A DNA stretch of 64,000 nt from Trypanosoma brucei (taxonomy: Eukaryota): positions 1,248,001 through 1,312,000 of the forward strand of contig CM000207.1 of the NCBI GenBank assembly GCA_000002445.1, given 5' to 3'. Each line of letters starts with the position of its first letter. Within the stretch, counting starts at the first letter, position 1. The position numbers were made by a program, and so were the translations under genes. Below the pieces are notes generated by a model. It was not told the origin of the DNA. It did no database searches and saw only the letters and a program-made list of their open reading frames with translations. Shown in pieces: positions 1 to 38,760 of this stretch.

Positions 1-1016
1 ACCTCATCTCCTGAATCTTATTAGTAATGTGTAAAGAAAAAAGAAAGTAAAGAATCATTACACTCAATGCTTCTATCATTGCATATTTTGAATGTTTGTA
101 AGTAAGCTAAGCTATTATATTGTGCGTATATTTATATTTTTTCTTCCCCTGGTAAAAGAGTAATGAATAAGAAGAGCTTATTCAAAAGAAAAATACTGAA
201 GTGTAGTAGTGAAAACAACAATGCTTGCAGCAACTGAAAGAGCAGTGAGTGCACAAATGAATATGCTCATGCAATGCCTTCAACTTCACGCACGTTTAGC
301 ATAATATGAGTTACAGAGGCATCACTTAGTAGAAAAAAATAATAAAGCGTGGAAAAATAATAATAATAATAATAATAGTGGTAATCGTAATACCAAAGAA
401 ATAGAGGTTATAGGGGTGGCAATAATAGTAACAAATTTACTATATATGGAAAAGAAAGTGTCGTATTCTCGAAAGTAATAAAGAGAGTAATAAGAAAAGG
501 AAGAAGTGCAACACTGAATATTTTACTGGTTGAAACTGATTCGAAGAGAACATGATATCAATAGAGTTGTAGGTGCTTCTCAATTCAGTAAAATGGTTGC
601 GACCACACAAATATGTTTTCCCTCTCATGCACAAACTCTCCTTCCTTTCCTCTCTTTGTTTCTTACTCATATGCCTTCATTTTCTTATATTTTTGTTCTC
701 ACTTTTCTAAACCTTCAATTCGCTTCGTTATAAAGCCACTCAAATCTCGAACTACCAGTTTTGATAAATGCACCATGTCGAGTAAAACTTCCCCATGAGG
801 ACAGAAAACATGTTGACAAGAGGAGTGACATAATCATTCACTGGTTAGAGTCCACACTCGCAACAATGGAAAGAAATAAATCAGAAGTAAAACAACAAAG
901 AGAAAAACAAATTATATGGAAACACCAGCTTTCCCATTCCTCTCTTATCGCCTCAATATATCTTTCTTTCTTTCCTTTCTCCCTACAAACATTTGCCTCT
1001 TTCCTATACTGATAAT

Positions 1017-1310
1017 TTATTGAGTTGGTTGCTGCTCACTTTGACACTGTGTAAAGATTTCCCATGCCCATTTACATGGTGCCGCATTGCCTTCATTTGC
1101 TTCCAAACATTTTGCATAAGTTTGGACATGAGCTGCACAGGCACCGTTACCAACTTGTTGTGCCACCTGTTGCAACTCAGTGGGTTGTGCAGGCGGGGCA
1201 TTGCGGTCGAAGAGCATATGTGAAATGCCGTGGCCAATGACGGAACCGGCTGCAACTGATGCCACATTTCCAAGGAGACCGCTACCCATTCCACCACGCA
1301 GCACGTACAC
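1017..1310 (-). CDS. CHCH-domain (twin Cx9C, CHCHD2/Mix17-like) protein, 5'-truncated array copy
   Basis: Gly-rich hydrophobic 'GGMGSGLLGNVASVAAGSVIGHGISHM' segment followed by CAAHVQTYAKC and CKWAWEIFTQC (two C-x9-C). The copy starts at MYVLRGG and lacks the N-terminal region of the terminal copy. Confidence 0.55.
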   Translation of the reverse strand: MYVLRGGMGSGLLGNVASVAAGSVIGHGISHMLFDRNAPPAQPTELQQVAQQVGNGACAAHVQTYAKCLEANEGNAAPCKWAWEIFTQCQSEQQPTQ

Positions 1311-2153
1311 ATTTGTTACCTGAGGTTGCGGTTGCTGAGCAGTTGTCTGGTGCGTGTTTTGATGCTGTTGTCGTGTGCCAAAGAAAATTATGAAATATAT
1401 CCAATAAGTGTTTCTGCAACGAATAAGTAAGGTTATGTGAAACTAAAACACATAAAAGGATCACTGCTTTCCATAGTTCCTGCATGAGCAGAGAATTGTT
1501 GGCACATAACATCTACTAACACTAGCCATACTGACAGCAACTTATTCCTCCTGCCCTCCATCCTTGCACACACACCTCACAGTAACCAGTAACACTTCAC
1601 AACTATTTTAAACATCTGGCTTATTGTCTCAACAAAAGTCAGAGGGTTAGTAACTTTCCTCGTGTCGCATGCGAGGTTGCTGCAAAATGCGAAGAGTTCC
1701 ACCTTATCGCACACACATATCAAATACAAAGAGTAATAATTAAGTAATGTCGCGTAACTGTTTTAGTTATAATTCAACGTGAAGTGTTACGGATCCTAAT
1801 TCCTTTCAGATTGGAAACCGCAAACCATACAGTCCTGCTTCTTGTTACAAGTCAAGTGGGACATGCTAATTGGATTCAACTTCAATTAATTCCGTCATTT
1901 GCAGGTAGCAATAACATCTATCCTAAGAATTGTTATTTGCATTTAAAGGGTGAAATTGAGTGCATTCAGATAAAACAAAATAAGACTCATAGCAACAGCA
2001 AAAAGAGACTCTTTAGGGTTTATGGCAAACACAATCAATGAACAAACACACTATACCATTAACACAATTAAATTCCAAATACTATAACACATGTATTCTG
2101 TTCCAAAAAGTTACAATAAGTATTATGGTAATCACATCATAAGATTATTCCGG

Positions 2154-3263
2154 TCAAATTAAAAAGCATAAAAATGAAATTAGAAGTGCAAATAGTTTTT
2201 CCATCATATCTACATTTTGGTTATAAGCATAAGCACCATCAAAGGGTTTCCTCCTCATGTAAGATAACATTGGTAGCAACATTGTATCATCAAGAAGGCA
2301 TTGCTCCCTCTGTGCTGCGGTAAGATTGAGCCATGAGTTTTCAAGATACATTTTGTCAAGTTCCGCCTTTACACTGGGAGTGCTGTAACATGTTTCGGCA
2401 GAGCAAGCGGTGCAACTGCGTTTCTTCATTCCTTCCTCAAAATTTCGTGTCAACGACTTTAACGTTTCCTTTAAGTCCTGGAGGGAAGCAAGTGCTGCAT
2501 TTATCCTTGTCTCTTGAGGACCGGCGATGTATTGCGTAATGTTTTTGTCGCATCGTTTCTTCTCCTTTGTGATGCTGGCTTGTTGTTCGTCAATATCTTC
2601 CTGTAGGCTCTCAATACTTGCACTCATTTCCTTTAATTTTGTAAGTTTATGATGGCATTTTCCGCTTTCCTCTTTCTTTTTGTCTTGTTCTCGTAGCACA
2701 GTGGCCACTTGATCTTCCTTCTTATTAAGTTCGATTTGCAAATCTGTAACTTTTTGTTTGTCCGCCCCCGTTTGGCTAGTTACTGTTATATTGCACAAAC
2801 CTCTTTTTTCTACTTCGTTTTGTAAAGGCTTGTTTTTCTCAACCAATTCATTTAGAGTTTTATCGTTGTCGCAGGTCCAAAGCTTAGGTTCCGTATCATG
2901 TTTCAGAGAATAGCAAAATATCCACGTTTTATCAACTTCAAAAAAATTTTCACTATTTGAAAAAAATCTCCTCCCGTAACCACTGTAATCATCTCCCCTC
3001 CACGTTACGTCACTGCATCGTTCATCACTTGCTCTCACAGTTAAGCAAAATATCAGCAACAATAATCCAAACAGTATTCGCATCTTCCTAATAATCTTAT
3101 AGCAGTTATCACGGAACAAAGCACGCATATATTTTTTCCATAAACACATTTGCATAAGAATAACCAAATTTACCATTAATGGAACAAAACCAACTGTACC
3201 GATTCGCAAAATGATATTATCATGATAATTAACTAACATGTATGATATCCATAAAAATTCCAT
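2154..3263 (-). CDS. Gene A (variant 1): secreted coiled-coil Cys-framework protein with C-terminal hydrophobic GPI-type signal. The likely true start is the Met at 3083 (MRILFGLLLLIFCLTVRA signal peptide).
   Basis: Long minus-strand ORF. Signal-peptide-like N-terminus, many N-x-S/T sequons, a conserved C-terminal module CSAETCYSTPSVKAELDKMYLENSWLNLTAAQREQCLLDD...MEKLFALLISFLCFLI, and a hydrophobic extreme C-terminus. Confidence 0.75.
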   Translation of the reverse strand: MEFLWISYMLVNYHDNIILRIGTVGFVPLMVNLVILMQMCLWKKYMRALFRDNCYKIIRKMRILFGLLLLIFCLTVRASDERCSDVTWRGDDYSGYGRRFFSNSENFFEVDKTWIFCYSLKHDTEPKLWTCDNDKTLNELVEKNKPLQNEVEKRGLCNITVTSQTGADKQKVTDLQIELNKKEDQVATVLREQDKKKEESGKCHHKLTKLKEMSASIESLQEDIDEQQASITKEKKRCDKNITQYIAGPQETRINAALASLQDLKETLKSLTRNFEEGMKKRSCTACSAETCYSTPSVKAELDKMYLENSWLNLTAAQREQCLLDDTMLLPMLSYMRRKPFDGAYAYNQNVDMMEKLFALLISFLCFLI

Positions 3264-3359
3264 TATTAATTCACATAGTGGAAAGAAATCTCTGCTGATA
3301 CTGACAGATTAATAAGTAAGAAAAGATACGAACCCAACATATTTTATTTCCATAACTGT

Positions 3360-4208
3360 TTACATGTTTTCATTATATTTTGAATTACTCTCCTCATTAC
3401 CCTCATGTGACACCCCGCATTTAACACCTGATTTTTTCCATCCATCTTTTCCATATAATTTATCCAAATTTTCCTTTATGTGCACATCATCCCAACAAGT
3501 CCCAGCGTCACATGCGGGACAATTATTATTTCCAAGTTTTTCCAGCTGTTGTTCCTTCAGCTCTATTGCTCTCTTAACGTATTGAATTTCATCTAAGACT
3601 TTCTCCAATCTCTCTTTGTAATTCCCCTCTGTCCATATTTTCCTGTTTTCACACTCTTTTTCTTCCTGTTTAAAAAGTGCATCCACTCGTTTTTTTTCAT
3701 CCTGAAGGCTCCTTACCTTGCCTTCGGAACCAGCCATTCTCCCAATATCCTCTTCGCACTGTTTCTTTTCTCGATCCACCTGTGTGCACGCTGCCCGAAG
3801 GCGCACAACTTCCTTGTCTTTCCCACCAATTCGCCCCCGTAGCTGTTCGGCTTCACGGTCTAGCTCCATCCGTCTCTCATGCACTTTCCTTTTACAAAAG
3901 GATATATCACCTCCACTACTCCAATTGAATCTGTTTGTAATGAGGTCTGTTGGTTGCTCATCGCTTGAAATATCACAAAGCCATAACATTTCATTTGCTC
4001 CACCTATTCTTTCGCTCCTGTTGCATATCATCCACTTATGATTTTTTACCAAGAGGTCATCATTAGCCTTCATCACAGCCACCTTATCATCAACCTCTCC
4101 ATCCTTTTGGATTCTAACACATTTGACAGCCTCCACCCTTTCTGTAAAAGCCAAAAACAATATCAACCCCGCCAAAGAAAAAAACATAAGTGTCCCATAC
4201 TCTTTCAT
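3360..4208 (-). CDS. Gene B (variant 1): secreted paralog of gene A without a C-terminal anchor signal
   Basis: Starts with the signal peptide MKEYGTLMFFSLAGLILFLAF. Coiled-coil middle. C-terminal module CPACDAGTCWDDVHIKENLDKLYGKDGW is homologous to the gene A module. Ends ...KYNENM with no hydrophobic tail. Confidence 0.75.
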   Translation of the reverse strand: MKEYGTLMFFSLAGLILFLAFTERVEAVKCVRIQKDGEVDDKVAVMKANDDLLVKNHKWMICNRSERIGGANEMLWLCDISSDEQPTDLITNRFNWSSGGDISFCKRKVHERRMELDREAEQLRGRIGGKDKEVVRLRAACTQVDREKKQCEEDIGRMAGSEGKVRSLQDEKKRVDALFKQEEKECENRKIWTEGNYKERLEKVLDEIQYVKRAIELKEQQLEKLGNNNCPACDAGTCWDDVHIKENLDKLYGKDGWKKSGVKCGVSHEGNEESNSKYNENM

Positions 4209-6804
4209 ATTGTTAGTTCACACTATATATCCTTCAAACACTTTCTTGTCCTTGTTAACAAATACATATACCCAAACCAAATGAAATAATAGCAACAGTG
4301 AGTGTTAACTATAGTGACAGCAGCTTCTTTTCTTACCTTACCTTACCTTACCGTGGCACTGAATCTGCTTCCTCATTGACACACGGCACAATGGCAAGAC
4401 ACAAATAAACTTAAAACTAAAAATTAACAAAAAATATATATGTGATCCAAATACAAAATAGGTACAACAACATGTGCATTCAAATGCAAACCTAACTCAG
4501 AAAAAATACACGAAATAAATGAACACATGTATTCCGATTAGCACACGCATATATGAATATCCTTTGTCAAAGTCAGTTAACAGTTTTTTCCCTTAGCAAT
4601 CCTTATTCCATCCCCGCATGTCTTAAATTCTATTTCCCACAGCCTACAACACATATCAGATGCGCTACCACTTCTATCCTAGTGCCACAAACTCACATTA
4701 ATCAAATTTCCTTCGTCACACCTCTTTCCTCTGCACGCAGTTAGAGTTCAACAAACGCAGCAGCATCATAACTCTAGAAATGCCGGTAATGCGATTAGTC
4801 TCAAGAACAAACAATTAATACTAACGGGCTGCATCTCTCACTACAATCCACATAACAACACACCCCATGAAATATGAGAACTTTTGGTGACATTATATCG
4901 TTTAGCATTTCCTACCAACATTCAAAAGGATTTGCCACACATCACAATTAGTTACTGTATATTATAAAGCATCGTGAAATGGTGTAGCAGTACGAGAAAA
5001 GGGGAGTCTCTAGTCCCTCTCCCGTAACTTCATCATTTCAATAAATGCTAACAGTATTCACGACCCCATACAAAAAACAAGGAACAACAACATATGGGAT
5101 ATTTTACTGAATCCCACTCTCTACACATCACAGTGTAACCTGAAATGCACTCTTCACTTCGAGCTGCAGTAAACATGATAATTCCCATAATGCTCAATGA
5201 AAAGATAACAGAAATATATAACATATGATAGGTAATACATGATATATATTCCAGCACTTTTGTTGCTATTCCCAGAGATTCAACATTTTAGGAAACAAAA
5301 TATACAGAATCAACATTACTCCAATTGTATCAGCCTAACAAGACACTGAATTGAGGAAATTGTGTGAAACTTAAGTACTGGAAATGCGAGATATCATAAA
5401 CATTCCACGATTGGACTCAATGAAAACAAATGCAATCTTAAAGTTAGTATAACTAATGCATGGAATGACTGGAATTGTTGGAAATGAAGAATTTAATATA
5501 ACTAAAAAAAAATAATAGTATTTTCATCCGATATGGGAGCAAATATGATAGAATACCACAACAGTAATCTCAGTAGTTGAGATGCCAATAACACAGTTAA
5601 GTCACAGTTGCAGCATAAACACTTCTGGAAAGACTCCATAAAGGGAAAGAAAACTAATCATATTTCGAAGACTCAATTAGGCGTGGAAGAGAAACGGCAA
5701 CTGGTACAAAATAAATGTAACTGCAGGAACGCAGTGACTCCAAGTGGACATAAACCTAAGGAACTGATGTGAAACCTCATCTCCTGAATCTTATTAGTAA
5801 TGTGTAAACAAAAAAAGAAAGCAAAGAATCATTACACTCAATGCTTCTGTCACTACATATTTTGAATGTTTGTAAGTAAGCTAAGCTATTATATTGTGCG
5901 TATATTTATATTTTTTCTTTCCTTACCAAAAGAGTAAGGAATAAGGAGAGCGTATTCAAAGGAAAGATACTGAAGTGTAGTAGTGAAAATAACAACTCTT
6001 GCAGCAACTGAAAGAGCAGTGAGGGCACAAATGAATATGCTCATGCAATGCCTTCAACTTCACGCACGTTTAGCATAATATGAGTTACAGAGGCATCACT
6101 TAGTAGAAAAAAATAATAAAGCGTGGAAAAATAAAAATAATAATAATAATAGTAATAGTGGTAATCGTAATACCAAAGAAAGAAAGAGGTTATAGGGGTG
6201 GCAATAATAGTAACAAATTTACTATATATGGAAAAGAAAGTGTCGTATTCTCGAAAGTAATAAAGAGAGTAGTAAGAAAATGAAGAAGTACAACACTGAA
6301 TATTTTACTGGTTGAAACTGATTCGAAGAGAGCATGATATCAATAGAGTTGTAGGTGCTTCTCAATTCAGTAAAATGGTTGCGGCCACACTAATATGTCT
6401 TCCCTCTCATGCACAAACTCTCCTTCCTTTCCTCTTTTTGTTTCTTACTCATATGCCTTCATTTCCATCTGATCTTCTTTATTCTCACATTTCTAAACCT
6501 TCACATCACTTCGTTACAAAATCACTCGAATCTCGAACTACCAGTTCTCATAAATGCACCATGTCGTGTAAAACTTTTCCATGAGACCAGAAAAAATATT
6601 GACAAGAGGAGTGATACAATCATTCACTGGTTAGAGGCCACACTCGCAACAATGGAAAGAAATAAATGAGAAGTAAAAAGAAGGACAAAGCGAAAAACAA
6701 ATTATAGGGAGACAGTAACTCTTCCATTTCTCCTCCATTGCCTCAATATATCTTTTTCTTTCCTTTGTCTCTACAAACATTTGCTCCTTTCCCATACTGA
6801 TAAT

Positions 6805-7182
6805 TTATTGAGTTGGTTGCTGCTCACTTTGACACTGTGTAAAGGTTTCCCATGCCCATTTACATGGTGCCGCATTGCCTTCATTTGCTTCCAAACATTT
6901 TGCATAAGTTTGGACATGAGCTGCACAGGCACCGTTACCAACTTGTTGTGCCACCTGTTGCAACTCAGTGGGTTGTGCTGGCGGGGCATTGCGGTCAAAG
7001 AGCATATGTGAAATGCCGTGGCCAATGACGGAACCGGCTGCAACTGATGCCACATTTCCAAGGAGACCGCTACCCATTCCACCACGCTGCACGTACACAT
7101 TTATTACCTGAGGTTGCGGTTGCTGAGCAGTTGTCTGGTGTGTGTTTTGATGCTGTTGTTGCGGCAACGTTTCATGTGCCAA
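6805..7182 (-). CDS. CHCH-domain protein, array copy with alternative N-terminus (MAHETLPQQQHQ...)
   Basis: Same twin Cx9C and Gly-rich region as the other copies. His/Gln-rich N-terminal extension. No MTS-like segment. Confidence 0.55.
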   Translation of the reverse strand: MAHETLPQQQHQNTHQTTAQQPQPQVINVYVQRGGMGSGLLGNVASVAAGSVIGHGISHMLFDRNAPPAQPTELQQVAQQVGNGACAAHVQTYAKCLEANEGNAAPCKWAWETFTQCQSEQQPTQ

Positions 7183-7954
7183 AGAAAATTAGGAAACACA
7201 TCCAATAAGTGCGTCTGCCACGAATATGTAAGGCTATGTGAAACTAAGACACATAAAAGGATCACTGCTTTCCATAGTTCCTGCATGAGCAGAGAATTGT
7301 TGGCACATAACATCTACTAACACTAGCCATACTGACAGCAACTTATTCCTCCTGCCCTCCATCCTTGCACACACACCTCACAGTAACCAGTAACACTTCA
7401 CAACTATTTTAAACATCTGGCTTATTGTCTCAACAAAAGTCAGAGGGTTAGTAACTTTCCTCGTGTCGCATGCGAGGTTGCTGCAAAATGCGAAGAGTTC
7501 CACCTTATCGCACACACATATCAAATACAAAGAGTAATAATTAAGTAATGTCGCGTAACTGTTTTAGTTATAATTCAACGTGAAGTGTTACGGATTCTAA
7601 TTCCTTTCAGATTGGAAACCGCAAACCATACAGTCCTGCTTCTTGTTACAAGTCAATTAGGACATGCTAATTGGATTCAACTTCAATTAATTCCGTCATT
7701 TGCAGGTAGCAATAACATCTATCCTAAGAATTGTTATTTGCATTTAAAGGGTGAAATTGAGTGCATTCAGATAAAACAAAATAAGACTCATAGCAACAGC
7801 AAAAAGAGACTCTTTAGGGTTTATGGCAAACACAATCAATGAACAAACACACTATACCATTAACACAATTAAATTCCAAATACTATAACACATGTATTCT
7901 GTTCCAAAAAGTTACAATAAGTATTATGGTAATCACATCATAAGATTATTCCGG

Positions 7955-8959
7955 TCAAATTAAAAAGCATAAAAATGAAATTAGAAGTGCAAATAGTTTT
8001 TCCATCATATCTACATTTTGGTTATAAGCATAAGCACCATCAAAGGGTTTCCTCCTCATGTAAGATAACATTGGTAGCAACATTGTATCATCAAGAAGGC
8101 ATTGCTCCCTGTGTGCTGCGGTAAGATTGAGCCATGAGTTTTCAAGATACTTGTTGTCAAGTTCCGCCTTTACACTGGGAGTGCTGTAACATGTTTCGGC
8201 AGAGCAAACACTGCAATTGTTTTTCTTTATTGCTTCCTCAAACATTTGTGTCGTCAAATTCAGCTGTTTCTTTAGGTCGTGGAGAGAAGCTTTTTTCTTT
8301 TTCAAGATTACTTTTTTGTGATTAGTGATATGATGTGTAATATTGTGATTGCATTGTTGCTTTACCTTCTCTATTTCATCTCTCTTTTCTCTGTTTGCTG
8401 TTTCGAGAGTTGCATTTGTTTGACTTTTGTCTCTTAACGTTTTTGGATCCTCGATACATGGTGGGTTTTTTTGCTTTGCTCCAGTGCTTTTTTTGTAATT
8501 TTCATTCTCGACCCCTAACTGCCGGAGTTTATCCTTCAATTTTTCAATTTTTTCTTTATGCACTCTTATTTGAGTTGCCACAGTACTGTCGCATAGATTT
8601 CCGCCCTCCACACTCTCTCGCAAAAGTTCGTGATTCTCGATTAAGTCTTTAAATGTTTTATCATTGCTACAACTCCAAACCTTTCCGCTTGTAAAATCAT
8701 TAGACGCATCGCAAAACATCCACTTTTTATCATTTCCAAAAAGTTTCTCCCCACCCTTCAAAACAAAACTCCTCGCATCATCGACGCCCTCCTCTCTGTA
8801 AACATCTTCCCTCTCTTTTATATAATAGCATGGATTATCATCCGCCCATATTGTTACGCAAGATATCAGCAACAACACTCCAAATAGTATTTGCATTTTT
8901 CTAATGCTCCTAGAGTAGATGATATGAAATAAAGCACGCGTATATATTTTCCATAACAC
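7955..8959 (-). CDS. Gene A (variant 2): GPI-signal-bearing coiled-coil Cys-framework surface-type protein. The likely true start is the Met at 8896 (MQILFGVLLLISCVTIWA).
   Basis: Conserved C-terminal module and hydrophobic tail. Cys framework: KKWMFC, W-C-NDKT, LCDST, QQCN, CSVCSAETCY. Sequons NATL, NHNIT, NLTT, NNCS. Confidence 0.75.
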   Translation of the reverse strand: MLWKIYTRALFHIIYSRSIRKMQILFGVLLLISCVTIWADDNPCYYIKEREDVYREEGVDDARSFVLKGGEKLFGNDKKWMFCDASNDFTSGKVWSCSNDKTFKDLIENHELLRESVEGGNLCDSTVATQIRVHKEKIEKLKDKLRQLGVENENYKKSTGAKQKNPPCIEDPKTLRDKSQTNATLETANREKRDEIEKVKQQCNHNITHHITNHKKVILKKKKASLHDLKKQLNLTTQMFEEAIKKNNCSVCSAETCYSTPSVKAELDNKYLENSWLNLTAAHREQCLLDDTMLLPMLSYMRRKPFDGAYAYNQNVDMMEKLFALLISFLCFLI

Positions 8960-9172
8960 ATTTGCATAAGAGTTACAGAATTCACGATTAACATGGCGAA
9001 ACCAATTTTACCGATTCATGAAATGATATTATAATGATAATTAACCAAAATGTATGATATCCATAAAAAAATCCATTATTATTTCACATAGTGGTAAGAA
9101 ACAACTGCTTAAACTGACAGATTAATAAGTAAGAAAAGATACAAACCCAACATATTTTATTTCCATAACTGT

Positions 9173-10048
9173 TTACATGTTTTCATTATATTTTGAATGA
9201 TTCCCTTCAGTATCTTCATGTGACACCCCACATTTACCTCCTGATTTTGTCCATCCATCTTTTCCATATAGTTTATCCAACTCTTCCTTTATTTTCACAT
9301 CATCCCAGCAAGCTTCAGCGTCACATGAGGGACACTTATTAATTCCAAGTTCTTCTAGTTGCTGTTCCTTTAGTTCTATTGCTTTCATAACATTTTTGAT
9401 TTCTTCATCAATTTTTTCAAGTTCAATATCGTATTCCTTTTCCATATTTCGCTTAATATTTTCACACTCTGTCATTTCCTTTTCAATAAGAGAGTTCATT
9501 CGAGCACCTTCATTTATGATGTTCTGTATCTTGGTATCAGTATCTGTTATTTTTTCTATCTGATCTTGGCATTCCTGCTTTGTCTCCTGTGCTTTTGCAC
9601 CCAATATCTCCAGGTTTTTATTTATCATATCTTGCTCCACAATTTTACTGCTCAGCTGTATCTCCTCATCCTTAATTCTTTGGATCTCTTCCAGCACCTT
9701 CTTTTTACAGGTAGTTACGCTGCTTACATCATTACTCCAATTGAATTTGTTAACGAGAGTTGTGGGTGTCCCATCAATAGAGGCGTCGCACATCCAAAAC
9801 ACTTTATTTGCTTCTCCCACCCTATTAGTGACGTTGCATATCATCCATTTGTGACGTCTACTCACGAAGTGATCACCATTTTCTATCACAGCCTCCATCA
9901 CTCCTTCCACCTCCTCCCTTCTCACCATACAGGTTTTGGCTTTCGACTCGCCAGTGAAAACCAACAATATCACTCCCGCCAATGATAAAAACATAAGTGT
10001 CCCATACTCTTTCATATTGTCACCTCGCATTATATATCCTTCAAACAC
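9173..10048 (-). CDS. Gene B (variant 2): secreted anchorless paralog. The likely true start is the Met at 10015 (MKEYGTLMFLSLAGVILLVF).
   Basis: Signal peptide, HKWMICNVTN...WMCDAS framework, long heptad-like coiled-coil, CPSCDAEACWDDVKIKEELDKLYGKDGW module. Confidence 0.75.
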   Translation of the reverse strand: MFEGYIMRGDNMKEYGTLMFLSLAGVILLVFTGESKAKTCMVRREEVEGVMEAVIENGDHFVSRRHKWMICNVTNRVGEANKVFWMCDASIDGTPTTLVNKFNWSNDVSSVTTCKKKVLEEIQRIKDEEIQLSSKIVEQDMINKNLEILGAKAQETKQECQDQIEKITDTDTKIQNIINEGARMNSLIEKEMTECENIKRNMEKEYDIELEKIDEEIKNVMKAIELKEQQLEELGINKCPSCDAEACWDDVKIKEELDKLYGKDGWTKSGGKCGVSHEDTEGNHSKYNENM

Positions 10049-10190
10049 TTTCTTGTCCTTACCATCAGATACACGTAAACAAAATGGAACAATAGCAACA
10101 GCGAGTGTTAATTATAGTGACAGCAGCTTCTTTTCTTACCTTACCTTACCTTACCGTGGCACTGAATCTGCTTCCTTATTAACATACTGC

Positions 10191-10245
10191 ACCATCTCAA
10201 GACAGAAAATTGATACTAAAAATTAACAAAAAGAACATAGATGTG
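10191..10245 (-). promoter_or_regulatory. T-rich polypyrimidine tract ~150 nt upstream of gene B (repeated in each array unit at 4380-4440, 15936-15990 and 21676-21730)
   Basis: The reverse complement reads catctatgttctttttgttaatttttagtatcaattttctgtcttgag. Confidence 0.45.
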
Positions 10246-21565: not shown

Positions 21566-23043
21566 ATGGAATAATAGAAACAGCGAGTGTTAATTATAGT
21601 GACAGCAGCTTCTTTTCTTACCTTACCTTACCTTACCGTGGCACCGAATCTGCTTCCTTATTAACATACTGCACCATCTCAAGACAGAAAATTGATACTA
21701 AAAATTAACAAAAAGAACATAGATGTGATCCAAATATCAAATAAAGCACCATCCACACACAAGCGCAAGCCTTTCACAGAATAGATACACGAAATAAATG
21801 AACACACATTTTCTGATCATCACACGCATATGCATATCCTACATTAATTTCAGTTAACAGCTTTTGTCGTTAGCAATCCTTATTCCATCCCCGTACGTCT
21901 TACACTCTATTTCCCACGGCCTACAACACATATCAGATGCGCTACCACTTCTATCCTACCACCACAAACTCACATTAATCAAATCCCCTCCATTTTCTCT
22001 TCCCCGCACGCAATTAGGGTTCAGTAAACGCAGTAGCATCACAATTCTGGAGATTCCGGTAATGCGATCACCCTGAAGAACAATTAATATTAACGGGCTG
22101 CATCTCTCACTACAATTCCACATAACGACACACCCCATGAAATATGAGAACTTTTGGTGACATTATATCGTTTGGCATTTCCTACCAACATTCAAAAGGA
22201 TTTGCCACACATCACAATTAGTTACTGTATATCGTAAAACACCGTGAAATAGTGTAGCAGTACGAGAAAAAGGGAGTCTCTAGTCCCTCTCCCGTAACTT
22301 CATCATTTCAATAAATGCTAACAGTGGCTATAACCCCAAACAGAAAAAACAAGGAACAACAACATATGGGATATTCGACTAAATCCCATCTCTCTGCATC
22401 ACAGTGTCACCTGGAATGCATCTTTCACCTCGAGTTGAAGTAAACAAAATAATTCCTACAGTATCGAATGGAAATATAACAGAAATGCATAACATATGAT
22501 AGGTAATACGTAATACATATTCCAGCACTTTTGTCACTATACGCGGAGATCTGACATGTTGGGAAACAAAATATACAACATCAACATTACTCCAATTGCA
22601 TCAGCCTCACAATACACTCAAGTGAAAGAAATGTAGAACTCAAGTACTGGAAATGCGAGATATCATAAACTTGCCACAGTTAAACTCAGTGAAAACAAAT
22701 GCAATCTGGAAGTAAGTGTAACTAATGTATGGAATGACTGGAATTGTTGGAAATACAGAATTTAATATAACTAAAAATAATACGTGTATTTTCATGCCAC
22801 ACGGAATAAAAAATGTGATAGAATACAACAACAGTAACCACAGTGGCTGAAATTCAAATAACACAGTTAAGTCACAGTTGCAGCATAAACACTTCTGGAA
22901 AGACTCCATAAAGGGAAAGAAAACTAATCATATTTCAAAGACTCAATTAGGCGTGGAAGAGAAACGGCAACTGGTACAAAATTAATGTAACTGCAGGAAC
23001 ATAGTGACACCAAGTGGCCATAAACTCAAGCGCCTGATGTGAA

Positions 23044-24510
23044 ACCTCACCTCCTGAATCTTATTAGTAATGTGTAAACAAAAAAAGAAAGCATAGAATC
23101 ATTGCACTCAATGCTTCCATCATTGCATATTTTGAATGTTTGTAAGTAAGCTAAGCTATTATATTGTGCGTATATTTATATATTTTCTTCCCCTGGTAAA
23201 AGAGTAAGGAATGAGAAGAGCTTATTCAAGAAAAATACTGAAGTGTAGTGGTGAAAACAACAACTCTTGCAGCAACTGAAAGAGCAGTGAGCGTACAAAT
23301 GAATATGCTCATGCAATGCCTTCAACTTCACGCACGTTTAGCATAATGTGAGATACAGAGGCATCACTTAGTAGAAAAAAATAATAAAGTGTGGAATAAT
23401 AATAATAATAATAGTGGTAATTGTAATACCAAAGAAATAGAGGTTATAGGGGTGGCAATAATAGTAACAAATTTACTATATATGGAAAAGAAAGTGTCGT
23501 ATTCTCGAAAGTAATAAAGAGAGTAATAAGAAAAGGAAGAAGTGCAACACTGAATATTTTACTGGTTGAAACTGATTCGAAGAGAACATGGTATCAGTAG
23601 AGTTGTAGGTGCTTCTCAATTCAGTAAAATGGTTGTGACCACACAAATATGTTTTCCCTCTCATGCACAAACTCTCCTTCCTTTCCTCTTTTTATTTCTC
23701 ACTCATATGCCTTCATTTCCTTATCTTTTTCTTTGTTCTCACTTTTCTAAACCTTCACATCACTTCGTTACAAAGCCACTCAAATCTCGAACTACCAGTT
23801 TTGATAAATGCACCATGTCGAGTAAAACTTCCCCATGAGGACAGAAAACATGTTGACAAGAGGAGTGACATAATCATTCACTGGTTAGAGTCCACACTCG
23901 CAACAATGGAAAGAAATAAATCAGAAGTAAAACAACAAAGAGAAAAACAAATTATATGGAAACACCAGCTTTCCCATTCCTCTCTTATTGCCTCAATATA
24001 TCTTTCTTTCTTTCCTTTCTCCCTACAAACATTTGCCTCTTTCCTATACTGATAATTTATTGAGTTGGTTGCTGCTCACTTTGACACTGTGTAAAGGTTT
24101 CCCATGCCCATTTACATGGTGCCGCATTGCCTTCATTTGCTTCCAAACATTTTGCATAAGTTTGGACATGAGCTGCACAGGCACCGTTACCAACTTGTTG
24201 TGCCACCTGTTGCAACTCAGTGGGTTGTGCTGGCGGGGCATTGCGGTCGAAGAGCATATGTGAAATGCCGTGGCCAATGACGGAACCGGCTGCAACTGAT
24301 GCCACATTTCCAAGGAGACCGCTACCCATTCCACCACGCTGCACGTACACATTTGTTACCTGAGGTTGCGGTTGCTGAGCAGTTGTCTGGTGTGTGTTTT
24401 GATGATTATGTTGTTGTTGTTGATGTGGTGGTGGTGTTGTGCGTGCGGGTGAAGCCGCAGCGGCGGGGCGCGGAGATGAGGCTGAACGACGAGTGCGAGC
24501 CATTTTTGCG
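23044..24510. repeat. Terminal partial array unit (spacer + intact CHCH gene); array/unique-sequence junction near 24,420-24,510
   Basis: Homology to the first ~1.4 kb of each unit ends inside the CHCH ORF N-terminal coding region. Sequence beyond is unique. Confidence 0.8.
24057..24503 (-). CDS. CHCH-domain (CHCHD2/Mix17-like) protein, full-length terminal copy with Arg/Ala/Pro-rich N-terminus (MTS-like)
   Basis: 148 aa: MARTRRSASSPRPAAAASPAR..., a His/Gln-rich linker, the Gly-rich helix, then two C-x9-C motifs. The N-terminal 30 codons are unique sequence outside the repeat. Confidence 0.7.
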   Translation of the reverse strand: MARTRRSASSPRPAAAASPARTTPPPHQQQQHNHQNTHQTTAQQPQPQVTNVYVQRGGMGSGLLGNVASVAAGSVIGHGISHMLFDRNAPPAQPTELQQVAQQVGNGACAAHVQTYAKCLEANEGNAAPCKWAWETFTQCQSEQQPTQ

Positions 24511-25268: not shown

Positions 25269-25721
25269 TCACGCCTTGTTGGCGTATTTCTTTGTCCATT
25301 CCCGTGCAACCTTCATGGCTTCAGCTTCATTACGTTTCCATGCTCCTGCCACTTCATTGTCAAGCGGATCATCGGGGTTTGGACTGGCCATCAATAGTTG
25401 AATGCTGAGGAGTACTTGAGCAATTTGTAGCGCTGGGGACCATTTGTCTTTGATGACGTCGAGGCAAATGCGTCCCAACTTATCCACGTTGGGATGATAA
25501 ATACGTGTAAGAAACCGCACCTTCAATGGTACCATCGGGTACTCTTCCGGGAGGAAAAGTTCAAGTTCAAAAATGCCACCTTCATAACTGCTTTGTGGAG
25601 GGCCACGAATTGTCACATGGAAATGACGCGGGTTCTCAGGGGAGGGCGTTGCGGTAATGCCTTCCGGTGGGTCCTTCCGCATCTTTTCCGTTTCTTTAAT
25701 AATACGAGGTGTCAGCGTCAT
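25269..25721 (-). CDS. UBC13: Ubiquitin-conjugating enzyme E2, UBC13 (UBE2N)-like
   Basis: 150 aa. [26 protein letters not shown] active-site region (HPN plus catalytic Cys). Near-canonical UBC13 signature [22 protein letters not shown]. Confidence 0.9.
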
Positions 25722-32735: not shown

Positions 32736-34361
32736 TTAACACACCAAAAGTTCGCAAATCACTGGTGGGTACGGTTCCCTCAGCCGGTCCGACTTACCAG
32801 GCGAAACTTGCGGTAGGGGCGGCCACAAGACACAACCCGGTGCTCGTGTATCACAGAGCTCTAAACCCCCATTCAGCGACACCCAACCCGTCCGCCACGG
32901 CACCAGTGTGAGTGTCAGCGTCGTCATTCCGTTCGGCTCAACAACACCCACGGGAACAGCCAGCGGCCCCGCATACACAAACGCTGGCGCCAGCAGCTCT
33001 GGCCGGACCCGCAATGCTAAATCAACGGTTTGTTGCGTGTGGTGGTTGACGATGGCACACTCAAACTTGACAGGGGTTCCCACTTGCGGTGACGTGGGCT
33101 CCATGTTGGTTACATGCAATTCCAACATCGGATGCCTGGGAAGCTCAAGCTGCACGACACCACTACCGTCTCTTCCACTGTCTCCATTTGGCCGCCTCCA
33201 GTCCCAAACCACGTAACCAACGTCGACAATCCGCGGTGCCACGGCACCTACTTGTTCGGCAAGAGGCATCTGTCCCAACATAAGGGAGCGCACCGCCTCT
33301 GGCCTCATGGTAAACTCAAAGAAATATCTACGTTTGTCCTTCGGACTCAGAAAAACGTCGTCTACTACCTCAATTCCACCGCTCAGGTGGCGCACATTGG
33401 CACCACTTATATCACATTCTTCCGCTTCCCCAGCGGAATTTGATTCGCTGTGCGGTCCCGTGGTCACTTGATTCGCCACTGCACTTTTAGAAGACGACAG
33501 TACTTGAAAAGTCTCCCCAACACGTAGCTCCACATTTTCCACAACAATCGGAACCGTTGCGACATTTTGCAGACATACTGTTAATGCATACCTCCTAGAT
33601 GGAAAAAAGGAATCCGATGACCCAACTGAGGCGCTCGGGCCCTTTTCTTGCAACTGCCTATCATTGTCACCACCTCTGCCAAACGACGCGGGGAGAAGAC
33701 GAAGTGACCGACGAACTTCAATTATCGCATGTTCAACCTCAATCGTCGATGCCCATGTCAGTCGTTTTTGCTCCTTGACAACATCAACACATGTGGCCAC
33801 CACGCTGAGGGTATACTGACCAGGGGATGAGAGGAGATGCTCTACAGTAAAGGAGACGTTTCCCCTGGCTTCAATTGCGGGGCACTCATGGTTTACGAGA
33901 GTCACGTGCCGCACGGATGGTGTGACGATATTAATTCGTATTACTGCTGTTGTTAGAGGATACGCTGCAGCGTTGTGGAAACTTAAGATCGCACGAAACG
34001 GTTGACCAACGAAGTGCTTACCGACTACGGACGGCAGCGAAAGAACGGAACTAACGCCTTGCATTGCCAGTCGTGCCGCCTCGCTTCGTCGCTGGGAAAC
34101 CAATGGATCGCCACTCTGTTTGACCGTCACCAGGGGATGGTGGAGCGGATTAGCGAGAACATCAAAAAGAATATCGCCTTCTTCCACTAGTTCTGGTAGG
34201 GACGACTGGGCCAATTCAGGTTTACGAAGTACTGCTGCCCTGACAGTGAGGGGGTTTGCCAAGATGGCGGGCATGTAATCAGTCGCTGAGAATACAGAAA
34301 CTCCCCCATCCTTTTCTCCCTTAGCCCCGTTGAAAGAGGGTGATACACCGTCTTTTGACAT
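32736..34361 (-). CDS. Hypothetical protein, 541 aa (orphan)
   Basis: Long ORF with balanced composition. No recognisable motif. Confidence 0.65.
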   Translation of the reverse strand: MSKDGVSPSFNGAKGEKDGGVSVFSATDYMPAILANPLTVRAAVLRKPELAQSSLPELVEEGDILFDVLANPLHHPLVTVKQSGDPLVSQRRSEAARLAMQGVSSVLSLPSVVGKHFVGQPFRAILSFHNAAAYPLTTAVIRINIVTPSVRHVTLVNHECPAIEARGNVSFTVEHLLSSPGQYTLSVVATCVDVVKEQKRLTWASTIEVEHAIIEVRRSLRLLPASFGRGGDNDRQLQEKGPSASVGSSDSFFPSRRYALTVCLQNVATVPIVVENVELRVGETFQVLSSSKSAVANQVTTGPHSESNSAGEAEECDISGANVRHLSGGIEVVDDVFLSPKDKRRYFFEFTMRPEAVRSLMLGQMPLAEQVGAVAPRIVDVGYVVWDWRRPNGDSGRDGSGVVQLELPRHPMLELHVTNMEPTSPQVGTPVKFECAIVNHHTQQTVDLALRVRPELLAPAFVYAGPLAVPVGVVEPNGMTTLTLTLVPWRTGWVSLNGGLELCDTRAPGCVLWPPLPQVSPGKSDRLREPYPPVICELLVC

Positions 34362-34808: not shown

Positions 34809-36539
34809 TTACCAATCGTCATCATCGTCGGTTTTACGTTTCGGCGGAAGTTTTCCGGGAGCCGGTGGTGGCGGTGGCGGAGGAGGAGGAGGAGGCGCAA
34901 CCTTTGGTGGCGGTCCCTTCGGCGGTGGCGCTTTCGGAGGGGGTGGTGGAGGTGGCGGTGGTGGAACTCCACCCTTTTGTGGGGGTGCCGGTGCGTTTCT
35001 GTTTATCGCCATACCCTTCGATGGTCCAGAGGCGGGAGGGCGCCTGCCATGATCGTCGTCTTCATCCTCACCGTCAGAGTGCATTCCCAATATCCCTTTG
35101 CGACGATTCGCAAGCAGAGAAGAAAGCGCATCAAGGTTGCTCTTCGTTGCTGGTTTAGGGGCCGGTTTAACATCCGATTTGGCGGCCGGCTTCGCGGGTG
35201 CCTTTGCTTGCCCGGGTGGTGGTGGTGGAGGAGGCGGGGGTGGAGCCGGTGGTGCATTACCAATTGGTAGTCCTTTCGTCGCAGCTGCTCCGGGTAATGA
35301 AGGCATGGGTGGTGGCGCTTTTATTGGTGGAGGGGGTGGCGCCTTCATTTTTCCCGCAAACATTGGTGGCGGCGGCGGGGGTGGTGGTGGCGCTTTACCG
35401 GGTGGTCGCAATCCACCTGGCGGTGGGGGTGGTGGTGGAAGCCCACTTGGCACGAGAGCACGTGAGGACGGGCCACCTGCTGCATCAGGACCTGCGGTAA
35501 TCGCCAATGCCTCCTGACCTTTCTTTTTATTTCGAGTCGACCCACTGCCACTTCCAACTGAATCACCCCTTTCCCCAAGCCGTCGCTGCCCGCTTGGCGC
35601 GATGTTGTCCTGGTCCTCCAAACTGTAGGCATTCCACGCAACCTCCGCAATGCCTTCAAGGGGCAAGTTTTCTGGGAGATCGTCCATCAGATTCGCCACC
35701 TCCTCCATCAGCGGGACGAAGGCGTATTCATCAGTCGACGCTTGGGTCACGTAATCGCGGTGCACATCTGATGTACCAAGTCGCTGCTTGGTGGCTACGA
35801 CACGCTCTTGCCGCTGTTGCGTCAGCACATCCATTTCATGGTACTCTTTGTAGAGGTTCTCCCTAGTATTAAATAATAATAGCGAGCTGACGCTCATGAG
35901 ATGTGCCGGTAGTCTCCCAAGGCCGCGATCCACACCACTATGATAGCGCCACGTCGCACCAAGCGGCATTAAGCTCTTAACTGTTGCCTCCTGCAATGGA
36001 TGCTGCGGTTTCATTAACCGCTGCTCTGCTCCAGGGCAATCAAGGCGACGGACGGGCTTCGGATATGCATCCTCCCCTTCCTGGCCTCCAAGCTGCCATG
36101 GGTCGGAGCCGTTGCCGCTATCGCCCCCGCTACTGCCCACCACTGGTGATGCACCCGAATCATCTGCTTGAATGATTGCTGGCATGACATACGCCCTTTC
36201 TGGCACACAGCCTCGATCCTCACACGGTGCGCGCCCTATTGGAAGCGTGTAGTGTTTTTGTTTTGGAAATCGAACCCTACTCTTCACCACCATCGCCTCC
36301 CTACGTCCTTGAAGCTGCTCGACTTGATCAGCACAAACCGCGATGCGTCCCTGAAGTTGCTCCAGTGTTTCGCGTGACCGCTCAACAGCCTGTTCAATGT
36401 TACCAAAGACACGTTCGCTTGTTTGATCAAGCCGCCCAAGAGCCCTGATGACGGACAGCATCGACGCATACCCACCATTTGTCAAGGGAACCGGCAGAGT
36501 ATACCCATGTATGGGTGTCATAGTGGTCTCCTTGTACAT
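34809..36539 (-). CDS. WASH-like nucleation-promoting factor (WASP/SCAR homolog family) with a poly-Pro region and a C-terminal VCA ending in Trp
   Basis: SVSSLLLFNTRENLYKEY matches the conserved WASH WAHD1 motif (human SSVSSLLLFNTTENLYKKY). Long PPPPPPPP tracts. LANRRKGILG (WH2-like) followed by an acidic DGEDEDDDH stretch and a terminal ...DDDDDW. Confidence 0.7.
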   Translation of the reverse strand: MYKETTMTPIHGYTLPVPLTNGGYASMLSVIRALGRLDQTSERVFGNIEQAVERSRETLEQLQGRIAVCADQVEQLQGRREAMVVKSRVRFPKQKHYTLPIGRAPCEDRGCVPERAYVMPAIIQADDSGASPVVGSSGGDSGNGSDPWQLGGQEGEDAYPKPVRRLDCPGAEQRLMKPQHPLQEATVKSLMPLGATWRYHSGVDRGLGRLPAHLMSVSSLLLFNTRENLYKEYHEMDVLTQQRQERVVATKQRLGTSDVHRDYVTQASTDEYAFVPLMEEVANLMDDLPENLPLEGIAEVAWNAYSLEDQDNIAPSGQRRLGERGDSVGSGSGSTRNKKKGQEALAITAGPDAAGGPSSRALVPSGLPPPPPPPGGLRPPGKAPPPPPPPPPMFAGKMKAPPPPPIKAPPPMPSLPGAAATKGLPIGNAPPAPPPPPPPPPPGQAKAPAKPAAKSDVKPAPKPATKSNLDALSSLLANRRKGILGMHSDGEDEDDDHGRRPPASGPSKGMAINRNAPAPPQKGGVPPPPPPPPPPKAPPPKGPPPKVAPPPPPPPPPPPAPGKLPPKRKTDDDDDW

Positions 36540-37640: not shown

Positions 37641-37792
37641 AACATCACAATGGATGGAGGATTCACTGTGCACGACTGAGACGGTGGGTCAACATTACGT
37701 GACTCACGTTTAACTTTCAGGCCATTATTTTTAAAAAGGAAATTAAGAAAAAACTTTTCACCTCGGTAATCGCTCACGAAAAGCACTCTCGA

Positions 37793-38359: not shown

Positions 38360-38760
38360 CGTGATGGTCCGGGTTACTGTTCAGATTGGATGTAGCGAAA
38401 GAAATGTAAGAAGGGAAAAGAAAAGTTGAAATGCGCATAAAACAGGGAGGGAGAAATCTAAAAGCAGACACGCAGAGAAAAACGAAGGAATGAGGCGAAT
38501 GTAGTAGCACAAACATTTTTATAATTTTTGTATCACTTACTCTTTTCTGTTATCACTGTATATTGTTCTCGCACATTCTTTCCTTCGTAACTTACAAGCA
38601 GGTGGCCACGGAAACACTCCTAGGCAGAACCCCACAAATCACTTCTGAGAGTCCACTTCAAATCTCATATTTTTTTCTTACAGTTTTCATTTCCCTCCAT
38701 CCCCCTTATGTCCTTATTGGGGGTTTCACTTACACTGTTGCTCACGAAAAGCACTCTCGA

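What the first reader, a model, noticed from the sequence alone, without database searches (positions are those of the whole stretch)
1..24510. At least 4.2-unit tandem array (5.75 kb period) of a paired surface-protein cassette, embedded in a housekeeping polycistron
Five occurrences of the same unit-start motif (1, 5774, 11554, 17299, 23044) define a head-to-tail array that continues beyond the left edge of the window. Each unit carries a GPI-signal-bearing gene A, an anchorless gene B, a CHCH-gene fragment and about 2.6 kb of highly conserved spacer. Arrays like this in kinetoplastids usually mark abundantly expressed surface or stage-specific families. This one lies in a chromosome-internal, single-strand polycistron next to UBC13, RPL10 and NAC-alpha rather than in a subtelomere. 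I cannot assign the two proteins to a family I know with confidence. ESAG9-like secreted families are a loose fit to the architecture (conserved signal peptide and Cys-rich C-terminus with a variable middle), but I cannot verify this from memory.
Basis: seen in the sequence. Interest (0 to 1): 0.8.

Follow-up and report, generated by a model that had tools for sequence, protein, structure and literature searches.

The report
Known T. brucei Family 7 surface-gene array
The repeat is real, but it is the already published five-unit chromosome 9 array of Trypanosoma brucei "Family 7" surface-protein genes, whose transmission-stage regulation is known and whose function is not; the new point here is that the variable gene cores are much older than the near-identical DNA around them.

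Summary
Observation confirmed. Window 1-24404 holds 4.2 head-to-tail copies of a 5.75 kb unit, all genes on the minus strand. Each unit carries a 5'-truncated CHCH gene copy, a 2.65 kb spacer, anchorless gene B and GPI-signal gene A.

The window is T. brucei TREU927 chromosome 9 (about 1.299-1.363 Mb). The array is Tb927.9.7850-7960, with 5 units in the reference. It was published by Jackson 2010 (Fig. 2), Savage 2012, Jackson 2013 (cell-surface phylome Fam7), Carnes 2015 and Rico 2017. Rico 2017 showed it is stumpy-enriched and repressed by REG9.1 together with ESAG9.

ESAG9 homology is not supported. No relative outside Trypanozoon appears in 1.84 billion profile-searched proteins, Pfam or PDB.

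Added here:
- A and B are paralogs (hhalign 99%).
- All junctions are the same, so one founding duplication broke inside the CHCH CDS.
- CDS cores are 55-60% identical with near-saturated silent sites, whereas flanks are 85-99.7% identical with 400-530 bp perfect tracts. This favours old cores plus flank gene conversion over "recent duplication and fast adaptive divergence".
- The cassette is 10-20% diverged between subspecies, against about 1% in neighbouring genes.

The function (possibly a disulfide-linked coiled-coil A/B dimer acting at transmission) remains inferred.

The parts
1..24404 (-). Tandem array: 4.2 of the 5 reference units of a 5.75 kb duplicon. It corresponds to Tb927.9.7870-7960 plus the tail of unit 1.
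   Evidence: Self-BLAST; unit alignment; literature
1017..1374 (-). 5'-truncated CHCH gene copy of unit 1, with the duplication junction at about 1374
   Evidence: ORF 1017-1310; junction sequence
2154..3083 (-). Gene A2 (309 aa; Tb927.9.7870; EAN76802). It has a signal peptide, 10 conserved Cys and a GPI-type hydrophobic tail.
3360..4208 (-). Gene B2 (282 aa; Tb927.9.7880; EAN76803). It has a signal peptide and no anchor.
4209..6804 (-). Conserved 2.6 kb spacer (CHCH-fragment downstream region to B upstream region). It is AT-rich and has no Rfam match.
6805..7161 (-). 5'-truncated CHCH copy (junction at about 7161). The annotated Tb927.9.7890 maps to an overlapping ORF, 6771-7100, in another frame.
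7955..8896 (-). Gene A3 (313 aa; Tb927.9.7900; EAN76805)
9173..10030 (-). Gene B3 (285 aa; Tb927.9.7910; EAN76806)
12563..12920 (-). 5'-truncated CHCH copy (junction at about 12920)
13700..14641 (-). Gene A4 (313 aa, identical to A3; Tb927.9.7930; EAN76808)
14918..15775 (-). Gene B4 (285 aa, identical to B3; Tb927.9.7940; the Fam7 example Tb09.v1.0540 by ID order)
18304..18663 (-). 5'-truncated CHCH copy (junction at about 18663)
19443..20378 (-). Gene A5 (311 aa; Tb927.9.7950; EAN76810). It is the closest to the single T. b. gambiense copy.
20636..21508 (-). Gene B5 (290 aa; Tb927.9.7960; EAN76811). It has an alternative C-terminal tail with two extra Cys.
24057..24503 (-). Full-length CHCH (twin Cx9C, Mic17-like) gene, Tb927.9.7980. 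The array homology ends at about 24404, inside it.
25269..25721 (-). E2 ubiquitin-conjugating enzyme, Tb927.9.8000. This is the first unique upstream neighbour and is not part of the array.

Best explanation
SHOWN. This is the published T. brucei TREU927 chromosome 9 segmental duplication, cell-surface phylome Family 7 (Tb927.9.7850-7960). The 5.75 kb duplicon runs from about codon 34 of the CHCH gene Tb927.9.7980 to about 730 nt downstream of gene A. It is present five times in TREU927, twice in T. b. equiperdum IVM-t1 and once in T. b. gambiense and T. evansi.

Each unit encodes two paralogous, Trypanozoon-restricted secretory proteins with 10 conserved cysteines. Both have a small N-terminal beta-rich part, about 120 residues of heptad-patterned helix and a Cys-rich C-terminal motif (CxxCxAExC[YW]...ELDxxY). 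B is soluble. A ends in a GPI-type signal.

SHOWN/INFERRED (evolution). All junctions are identical, so one founding duplication was amplified by unequal crossing-over. The flanks (CHCH fragment, spacer, signal peptides, A C-terminus and A downstream region) are kept 85-99.7% identical by ongoing gene conversion or unequal exchange. The helical cores are old lineages: 55-60% nucleotide identity, with silent sites 30-77% different. The array therefore stores a strain-variable set of divergent A/B isoforms and is not a set of recent copies.

FROM LITERATURE. The mRNAs are repressed in slender forms by the RNA-binding protein REG9.1. They rise in stumpy (transmission) forms together with ESAG9 and Family 5. 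The A genes respond 7-12 fold and the B genes weakly.

INFERRED (function, low confidence). A and B pair through their coiled-coil regions into a disulfide-stabilised dimer held on, or shed from, the surface by A's single GPI anchor. This arrangement resembles ESAG6/ESAG7 and the LRIM1/APL1C coiled-coil heterodimer. The dimer would act at the mammal-to-tsetse transition, and its variable helical surface would be the interacting or immune-exposed face.
For: Identity:
- 100% matches to TREU927 proteins EAN76802-76811.
- CDS lengths and spacing equal the Tb927_09 coordinates in the Rico 2017 S2 table.
- The same locus is described by Jackson 2010 Fig. 2, Carnes 2015 S6 Fig, the Savage 2012 GPI predictions and the Jackson 2013 Fam7 table.

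Paralogy: hhalign probability 99%, E=3.6e-18 over 244 columns. There are 20 invariant columns across A and B, including 9 Cys (a tenth Cys is nearly invariant).

Duplicon and junction.

Mosaic:
- Cores are 55-60% identical and flanks 85-99.7%. Perfect tracts of 413-531 bp sit in the flanks next to the cores, and one runs into the A CDS 3' end.
- Core dS is 0.9 to over 3, against 0.02-0.3 in the A C-terminus.
- At codons with a conserved amino acid, 28-51% carry silent changes in the cores, against 0-15% in the A C-terminus.

Locus-specific divergence: neighbouring genes are 98.4-99.6% identical between TREU927 and T. b. gambiense, against 79-90% in the cassette.

Helical core: AF2 predicts helices at 90-140 and 151-225 in A, and 105-229 in B with pLDDT about 90. 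The heptad a/d pattern places the conserved Cys154 and Cys189 (B numbering) at core positions.

Regulation: Rico 2017.
Against: - No protein-level evidence. Rico 2017 note that Family 7 was not detected in stumpy proteomes.
- Dimerisation was not testable here because only single-chain prediction was available.
- The AF2 models are low confidence overall (mean pLDDT 50 and 63) and disagree on hairpin versus one long helix.
- B genes respond only weakly to REG9.1 loss, which is awkward for an obligate 1:1 heterodimer.
- Old cores could instead have been imported from unsequenced donor loci.
- Alignment uncertainty in the cores inflates the divergence estimates somewhat.
Confidence: 0.6

Rival explanations
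1. Very recent segmental duplication in T. b. brucei, followed by rapid adaptive (positively selected) divergence of the two surface genes. This is the interpretation offered by Jackson et al. 2010.
For: TREU927 has five copies against one in T. b. gambiense and T. evansi. The non-coding parts and the CHCH pseudo-copies are nearly identical between units. The extra variants were not found in T. b. gambiense reads.
Against: Silent sites in the cores are near saturation (dS 0.9 to over 3). At conserved-amino-acid codons 28-51% carry silent changes and 4-fold sites differ by 30-77%. The adjacent non-coding DNA differs by only 0.3-15%. Positive selection on amino acids cannot produce that contrast. 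dN/dS in the cores is 0.2-0.6, not above 1. The same junction occurs in T. b. equiperdum, so the founding event predates strain divergence. T. equiperdum OVI carries a further core type.
Confidence: 0.2
2. The two proteins are divergent members of the ESAG9 family (cell-surface phylome Fam2).
For: Both families are T. brucei-specific, about 300 aa, and have a signal peptide with or without a GPI signal. Both are stumpy-enriched and de-repressed by REG9.1 RNAi. An ESAG9 cluster (Tb927.9.7340/7370) lies on the same chromosome.
Against: A profile HMM of 13 A and B sequences against 1.84 billion representatives returns only the family itself. A word-indexed search of 5.8 billion proteins at E<=10, which includes NCBI T. 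brucei proteins, returns only family members. Jackson 2013 clusters ESAG9 as Fam2 and this array as Fam7, and Rico 2017 treats them as distinct families.
Confidence: 0.05
3. The genes are transcribed but decaying relics with no protein function. The array would then be neutral copy-number variation.
For: Copy number varies from 1 to 5 between strains without obvious consequence. Expression is low. The proteins were not detected in stumpy proteomes.
Against: All eight CDSs in the window, and those in three other assemblies, are intact. Ten cysteines and the C-terminal motif are conserved across sequences whose cores are near saturation (nine Cys strictly invariant, one nearly invariant). dN is below dS throughout. 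There is dedicated developmental regulation by REG9.1.
Confidence: 0.1
4. The array is an assembly artefact, with one unit wrongly expanded.
For: Units 3 and 4 share a 3,000 bp perfectly identical tract.
Against: Three distinct A/B core types occur in the window (four in the full reference array), at 55-60% identity, so they cannot be copies of one unit. Units 3 and 4 still differ in their spacers (81-99% in some alignment windows). Carnes 2015 compared read depth over this region between TREU927 and T. evansi and inferred a single copy in T. evansi. An independent chromosome-level assembly of T. b. equiperdum also has two units with the same junction.
Confidence: 0.02

Closest known systems
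Cell-surface phylome Family 7 (Fam7) of T. brucei, Tb927.9.7850-7960 (Jackson 2010 Fig. 2; Jackson 2013; Rico 2017)
   Same: It is the same locus and the same genes. Protein sequences are identical, as are chromosome 9 coordinates, strand, five-unit structure and the single copy in T. b. gambiense and T. evansi.
   Different: Nothing differs in identity. The published descriptions call B 'transmembrane' and the CHCH copies 'identical secretory protein' genes. Here the CHCH copies are shown to be 5'-truncated. B has only a signal peptide plus a hydrophilic C-terminus. The cores are shown to be old rather than recently diverged.
ESAG9 (cell-surface phylome Fam2)
   Same: Both are T. brucei-specific, of similar size and secretory. 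Both are stumpy-enriched and repressed by REG9.1.
   Different: No detectable sequence relationship. ESAG9 genes are dispersed or associated with expression sites, whereas this is one chromosome-internal paired array.
ESAG6/ESAG7 transferrin receptor
   Same: Both consist of adjacent paralogous genes, one with a GPI signal and one without, with variable ligand-facing regions. This is the precedent for a heterodimer held by a single GPI anchor.
   Different: No sequence or Pfam (VSG-type) similarity. The predicted architecture here is a long coiled coil, not a VSG-like three-helix bundle. Heterodimerisation is untested.
Anopheles LRIM1/APL1C (PDB 3OJA)
Other TREU927 strain-variable surface arrays: Fam1 (Tb927.6.1310-1390) and Fam6 (Tb927.3.5690-5730)
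   Same: They are T. brucei-specific arrays of signal-peptide/GPI proteins, multi-copy in TREU927 and single-copy in T. b. gambiense and T. evansi.
   Different: They are unrelated in sequence. Fam1 is VSG-derived with 0.1-3.2% divergence between copies, whereas the cores here differ by 40-45%.

Membership tests
T. brucei cell-surface phylome Fam7 / Tb927.9.7850-7960 array | Sequence identity to the annotated TREU927 gene products | tested here: met
   100% identity and coverage to EAN76805/76808 (A) and EAN76806/76809 (B). The other units match EAN76802, 76803, 76810 and 76811.
T. brucei cell-surface phylome Fam7 / Tb927.9.7850-7960 array | Chromosome 9 position, reverse strand, CDS lengths and spacing as in published tables labelled 'family 7' | tested here: met
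   The Rico 2017 S2 coordinates map to window A and B CDSs with a constant offset (within 4 bp) and identical lengths of 930/942/942/936/858 bp.
T. brucei cell-surface phylome Fam7 / Tb927.9.7850-7960 array | Restricted to T. brucei (Trypanozoon), with no homolog in T. congolense or T. vivax | tested here: met
   Only T. b. brucei, gambiense, equiperdum and T. equiperdum proteins were found.
T. brucei cell-surface phylome Fam7 / Tb927.9.7850-7960 array | Stumpy-enriched mRNA repressed by REG9.1 | not testable with these tools
   Literature only: Rico 2017 northern blots and RNA-seq.
ESAG9 (Fam2) | Detectable sequence homology to ESAG9 genes | tested here: not met
   No ESAG9-named or other non-family protein at E<=10 or E<=0.001 in the HMM scan. 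The published clustering puts them in separate families.
ESAG9 (Fam2) | Association with VSG expression sites or dispersed subtelomeric copies | tested here: not met
   The array is a single chromosome-internal locus flanked by housekeeping genes on the same strand.
VSG-like superfamily (VSG, ESAG6/7, HpHbR, GARP and related proteins) | Match to VSG-type Pfam domains or to solved trypanosome surface-protein structures | tested here: not met
ESAG6/ESAG7-type heterodimeric receptor (works-like comparison) | Adjacent paralogs, one GPI-anchored and one anchorless | tested here: met
   Paralogy. C-terminal hydrophobicity is +2.1 in A against -0.4 to -2.4 in B. GPI predictions by BigPI and FragAnchor are in Savage 2012.
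ESAG6/ESAG7-type heterodimeric receptor (works-like comparison) | Physical A-B heterodimer | not testable with these tools
   Only single-chain structure prediction was available. Cys at heptad core positions is suggestive only.
LRIM1/APL1C-like coiled-coil heterodimer | LRR domain plus a C-terminal coiled coil with significant structural similarity | tested here: inconclusive

The most novel reading that the evidence does not exclude
The array is a store of anciently diverged A/B isoform pairs kept by balancing or diversifying selection across Trypanozoon strains, with flank homogenisation allowing cassette shuffling. [quoted passage not shown] There they would engage, or act as decoys for, a polymorphic host or vector factor such as a complement-like TEP system. 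Array composition would then contribute to strain differences in transmissibility.
Probability: 0.12. Interest if true: 0.7.

Novelty: already known. Interest (0 to 1): 0.3.

Why it matters
The array itself is not a discovery. It has been in the literature since 2010, has a family name (Fam7) and has a known post-transcriptional repressor (REG9.1).

It still matters because Family 7 is one of only a few T. brucei-specific, transmission-stage surface families with no known function. The analysis here changes the published evolutionary reading. The variable cores are old and the flanks are homogenised, and the locus is 10-20 times more diverged between subspecies than its neighbours. That is the pattern expected for a target of long-term diversifying or balancing selection, and not for a recent dosage change. 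This makes an interaction with a polymorphic host or vector molecule more plausible. It also gives concrete tests: A/B pairing, population typing of the cores, and transmission assays after array knockout.

Tried and rejected
- Tandem Repeats Finder found nothing because its period limit is 500. Self-BLAST was used instead.
- Pfam gave only weak coiled-coil noise below the curated cut-offs, and so did the PDB sequence searches with single proteins and with the profile.
- Rfam at E<=0.1 on positions 1-26000 found no RNA gene in the spacers.
- AlphaFold2 of A (pLDDT 50) and B (pLDDT 63) with the only available 13-sequence alignment was too weak for fold assignment.
- The look-up of encoding contigs failed for the TREU927 unit-1 proteins, so the TREU927 left flank and the ingi element reported by Jackson 2010 could not be inspected. 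The T. b. gambiense and T. equiperdum flanks were used instead.
- Literature searches by UniProt accession, and full-text searches by several Tb927.9.78xx/79xx IDs, returned nothing useful. A 'Fam7' search returned only unrelated papers.
- Considered and rejected: ESAG9 membership, VSG-like membership, assembly artefact, and snoRNA or other ncRNA content of the spacer.


Full report
1. OBSERVATION

A self-BLAST of the window shows that positions 1-2489 recur at 5774, 11554, 17299 and 23044 with 92.5-97.2% identity. Longer shifted alignments are also present, for example 4156-13983 against 9963-19726. Homology stops at about 24404. Units cut at their junctions are 5741-5787 bp long. TRF found nothing only because its maximum period is 500.

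The array is markedly AT-rich, at 35-39% GC against 44-54% in the rest of the window. The ORF list shows that everything is on the minus strand. In the direction of transcription each unit reads:
- a CHCH-gene fragment;
- a spacer of about 2.65 kb;
- gene B (282-290 aa);
- a gap of about 270 nt;
- gene A (309-313 aa);
- about 790 nt up to the next junction.

2. WHERE THE WINDOW COMES FROM AND WHAT IS ALREADY PUBLISHED

Both proteins match T. brucei brucei TREU927 proteins at 100% identity. The accessions run consecutively from EAN76800 to EAN76811, which implies five A/B pairs with one pair to the left of the window.

This locus is in the literature.
- Jackson et al. 2010 (PMC2854126, Fig. [quoted passage not shown] It corresponds to one segment in T. 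b. gambiense, and the second and third genes are only 51.2% and 59.1% identical on average.
- Savage et al. 2012 (PMC3378594) list Tb09.v1.0450/0470/0500/0530 and Tb09.211.0010 as a family predicted to be GPI-anchored by BigPI and FragAnchor. Expression was 'Low' in proventricular and bloodstream parasites.
- Jackson et al. 2013 (PMC3605285, Table S1) list Fam7 (example Tb09.v1.0540; 10 members; T. brucei-specific). The old-ID spacing (0450, 0470, 0500, 0530) mirrors the accession spacing (76800, 76802, 76805, 76808), so Tb09.v1.0540 is gene B of unit 4.
- Carnes et al. 2015 (PMC4288722, S6 Fig) call it 'a 5x repeat' of the Tb927.9.7950/7960 tandem, present as a single copy in T. evansi.
- Rico et al. 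2017 (PMC5380359) label Tb927.9.7850, 7870, 7900, 7930 and 7950 (A genes) and 7860, 7880, 7910 and 7940 (B genes) as 'family 7'.

The chromosome coordinates and CDS lengths in the Rico 2017 table map onto the window ORFs with a constant offset. Window position 1 is approximately chr9:1,298,957-1,298,961.

Neighbouring genes fit the same map. Tb927.9.7980 is a CHCH/Mic17-like protein and Tb927.9.8000 is the E2 conjugase implicated in apoL1 sensitivity.

3. THE PROTEINS

No Pfam family reaches its cut-off for any of the 13 family members. PDB sequence searches give only coiled-coil noise, both with single proteins and with the profile. A profile HMM of all A and B sequences scanned against 1.84 billion representative proteins returns only the two family representatives. 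A word-indexed search at E<=10 returns only family members from T. b. brucei, T. b. gambiense, T. b. equiperdum and T. equiperdum.

A and B are paralogs: hhalign gives probability 99% and E=3.6e-18 over 244 columns. They share 20 invariant columns, including nine of their ten conserved cysteines, and the motif CxxCxAExC[YW]x4[VI]KxELDxxY.

A ends in ...FDGAYAYNxNVDMMEK followed by a 13-residue hydrophobic tail. B ends hydrophilically.

AlphaFold2 with the shallow 13-sequence alignment gives low overall confidence.
- A: mean pLDDT 50, with a beta-hairpin at 61-77 and helices at 90-140 and 151-225.
- B: mean pLDDT 63, with one helix at 105-229 at pLDDT about 90.

Column-wise hydrophobicity shows a heptad a/d pattern. 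The conserved Cys154 and Cys189 (B numbering) fall at core positions. Residues 143-153 form a segment free of hydrophobic residues that contains indels and, in A3, Pro-Pro. Two architectures are compatible with this:
- a hairpin stapled by Cys108-Cys189;
- an extended parallel coiled-coil dimer with interchain disulfides.

I could not discriminate between them.

4. ANATOMY AND HISTORY OF THE DUPLICATION

The single T. b. gambiense unit (L001) is collinear with the rightmost TREU927 unit. Homology breaks at L001:11755, about 730 nt downstream of A. In TREU927 it resumes at the sequence equivalent to L001:6008, which is about codon 30-34 of the CHCH CDS.

All four junctions in the window have the same structure. 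The two-unit array of T. b. equiperdum IVM-t1 has a CHCH fragment starting at residue 34 as well. I conclude that one founding duplication, older than the split of these strains, was followed by expansion and contraction through unequal crossing-over.

The CHCH copies are therefore 5'-truncated, not complete 'identical' genes. They do retain the twin Cx9C motif and an in-frame Met.

5. MOSAIC DIVERGENCE (the main addition here)

Region-wise identities between units:

| Region | Identity between units |
|---|---|
| CHCH fragment | 97.6-99.7% |
| Spacer | 86-98% |
| A C-terminus | 91-96% |
| A downstream region | up to 99.7% |
| B core | 55-58% |
| A core | 55-60% |

Units 3 and 4 are a recent duplicate pair with a 3,000 bp identical tract. 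Perfectly identical tracts of 413-531 bp lie in the flanks of units whose cores are otherwise divergent, close to the cores. This is the classical signature of gene conversion or unequal exchange.

Nei-Gojobori estimates give core dS of 0.9 to over 3 with dN about 0.5. The A C-terminus has dS of 0.02-0.3.

A stricter test that cannot be inflated by amino-acid selection used only codons whose amino acid is conserved. In the cores 28-51% of these carry silent changes and 4-fold sites differ by 30-77%. In the A C-terminus the figures are 0-15% and 0-19%.

The cores are thus several-fold older than the flanks, or they were imported. The published reading of very recent duplication with rapid adaptive divergence does not explain the silent-site contrast.

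The locus is also hyper-divergent between subspecies. The 900-aa and 539-aa genes, the E2 gene and the intergenic regions are 98.4-99.6% identical between TREU927 and T. b. gambiense. Identity drops abruptly to 79-90% from just 3' of the CHCH CDS through the whole 'orthologous' unit. T. equiperdum OVI carries yet another A core type at the array end (P0002).

6. REGULATION AND LIKELY ROLE

This part is taken from the literature. Rico 2017 found that REG9.1 RNAi in pleomorphic bloodstream forms raises A-gene mRNAs by log2FC 2.75-3.58 and B-gene mRNAs by 0.46-1.59. Northern blots show stumpy enrichment, as for ESAG9 and Family 5. The proteins were not seen in stumpy proteomes, so they may be released.

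My inferences:
- The very conserved A-downstream tract is the A 3'UTR and carries the control elements.
- A and B pair through the coiled coil and are tethered by A's single GPI anchor.
- The variable helical surface is the functional or exposed face.

These are hypotheses, not results.

7. COMPARISON AND VERDICT

The ESAG9 suggestion fails as homology but has a regulatory parallel. 'Abundantly expressed' is not supported. The 'embedded in a polycistron' description holds for the window and for 10 kb downstream in other strains. Jackson 2013 states that Fam4-7 lie next to strand-switch regions, which I could not check for TREU927.

The feature is real and interesting biologically, but it is already known. 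The residual novelty is the evolutionary reinterpretation and the dimer hypothesis.

Noticed in passing
window 37772-38475 and 38740-39443: A 704 bp tract is duplicated at 100% identity. It covers two tandem 188-aa NAC-alpha genes (NAC plus HYPK_UBA domains), a second and much younger tandem duplication in the same polycistron.
   Followed up: partly
window 6771-7100 (also 1004-1312, 12550-12858, 24044-24352), minus strand: The annotated 'hypothetical protein, conserved' Tb927.9.7890 (chr9:1305727-1306056) maps to a 109-aa ORF that overlaps the CHCH fragment in a different reading frame. The same alternative-frame ORF also overlaps the full-length CHCH gene, so that annotation is probably a spurious ORF call.
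   Followed up: partly
window 18664-24056 vs L001 6366-11755: Identity between TREU927 and T. b. gambiense falls from 98.4-99.6% in the upstream genes and intergenic regions to 79-90% across the entire cassette, non-coding parts included. The switch is sharp and lies just 3' of the CHCH CDS.
   Followed up: yes
window between A2 (2154-3083) and A3 (7955-8896): The offset between window coordinates and the Tb927_09 coordinates used by Rico 2017 changes by 4 bp between A2 and A3. This implies a small indel difference between assembly versions inside unit 2.
   Followed up: no
window 1-24000 vs 24001-64000: The array is strongly AT-rich (35-39% GC) with alternating AT and GC skew blocks in each unit. 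The housekeeping part of the same transcription unit is 44-54% GC.
   Followed up: no
window 20636-21508 (B5) and L001 8979-9836: The type-5 B proteins have a different C-terminal tail (KCYPKVFREIIKNVTEACKxLWK) with two extra cysteines (positions 201 and 285 in B5). This suggests an additional disulfide tying the tail back onto the long helix.
   Followed up: no
window 25269-25721, minus strand: The E2 next to the array is Tb927.9.8000. Currier 2018 report it as an essential E2 conjugase that influences apoL1 and human-serum sensitivity together with the E3 ligase Tb927.10.12940.
   Followed up: partly
window 34809-36539 and 32736-34361, minus strand: The downstream polycistron includes a WASH-complex WAHD-domain protein and a TRAPPC13 homolog, along with Pescadillo, a peptide deformylase, a rhomboid and a Y_phosphatase2 protein. 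These are ordinary housekeeping context.
   Followed up: no
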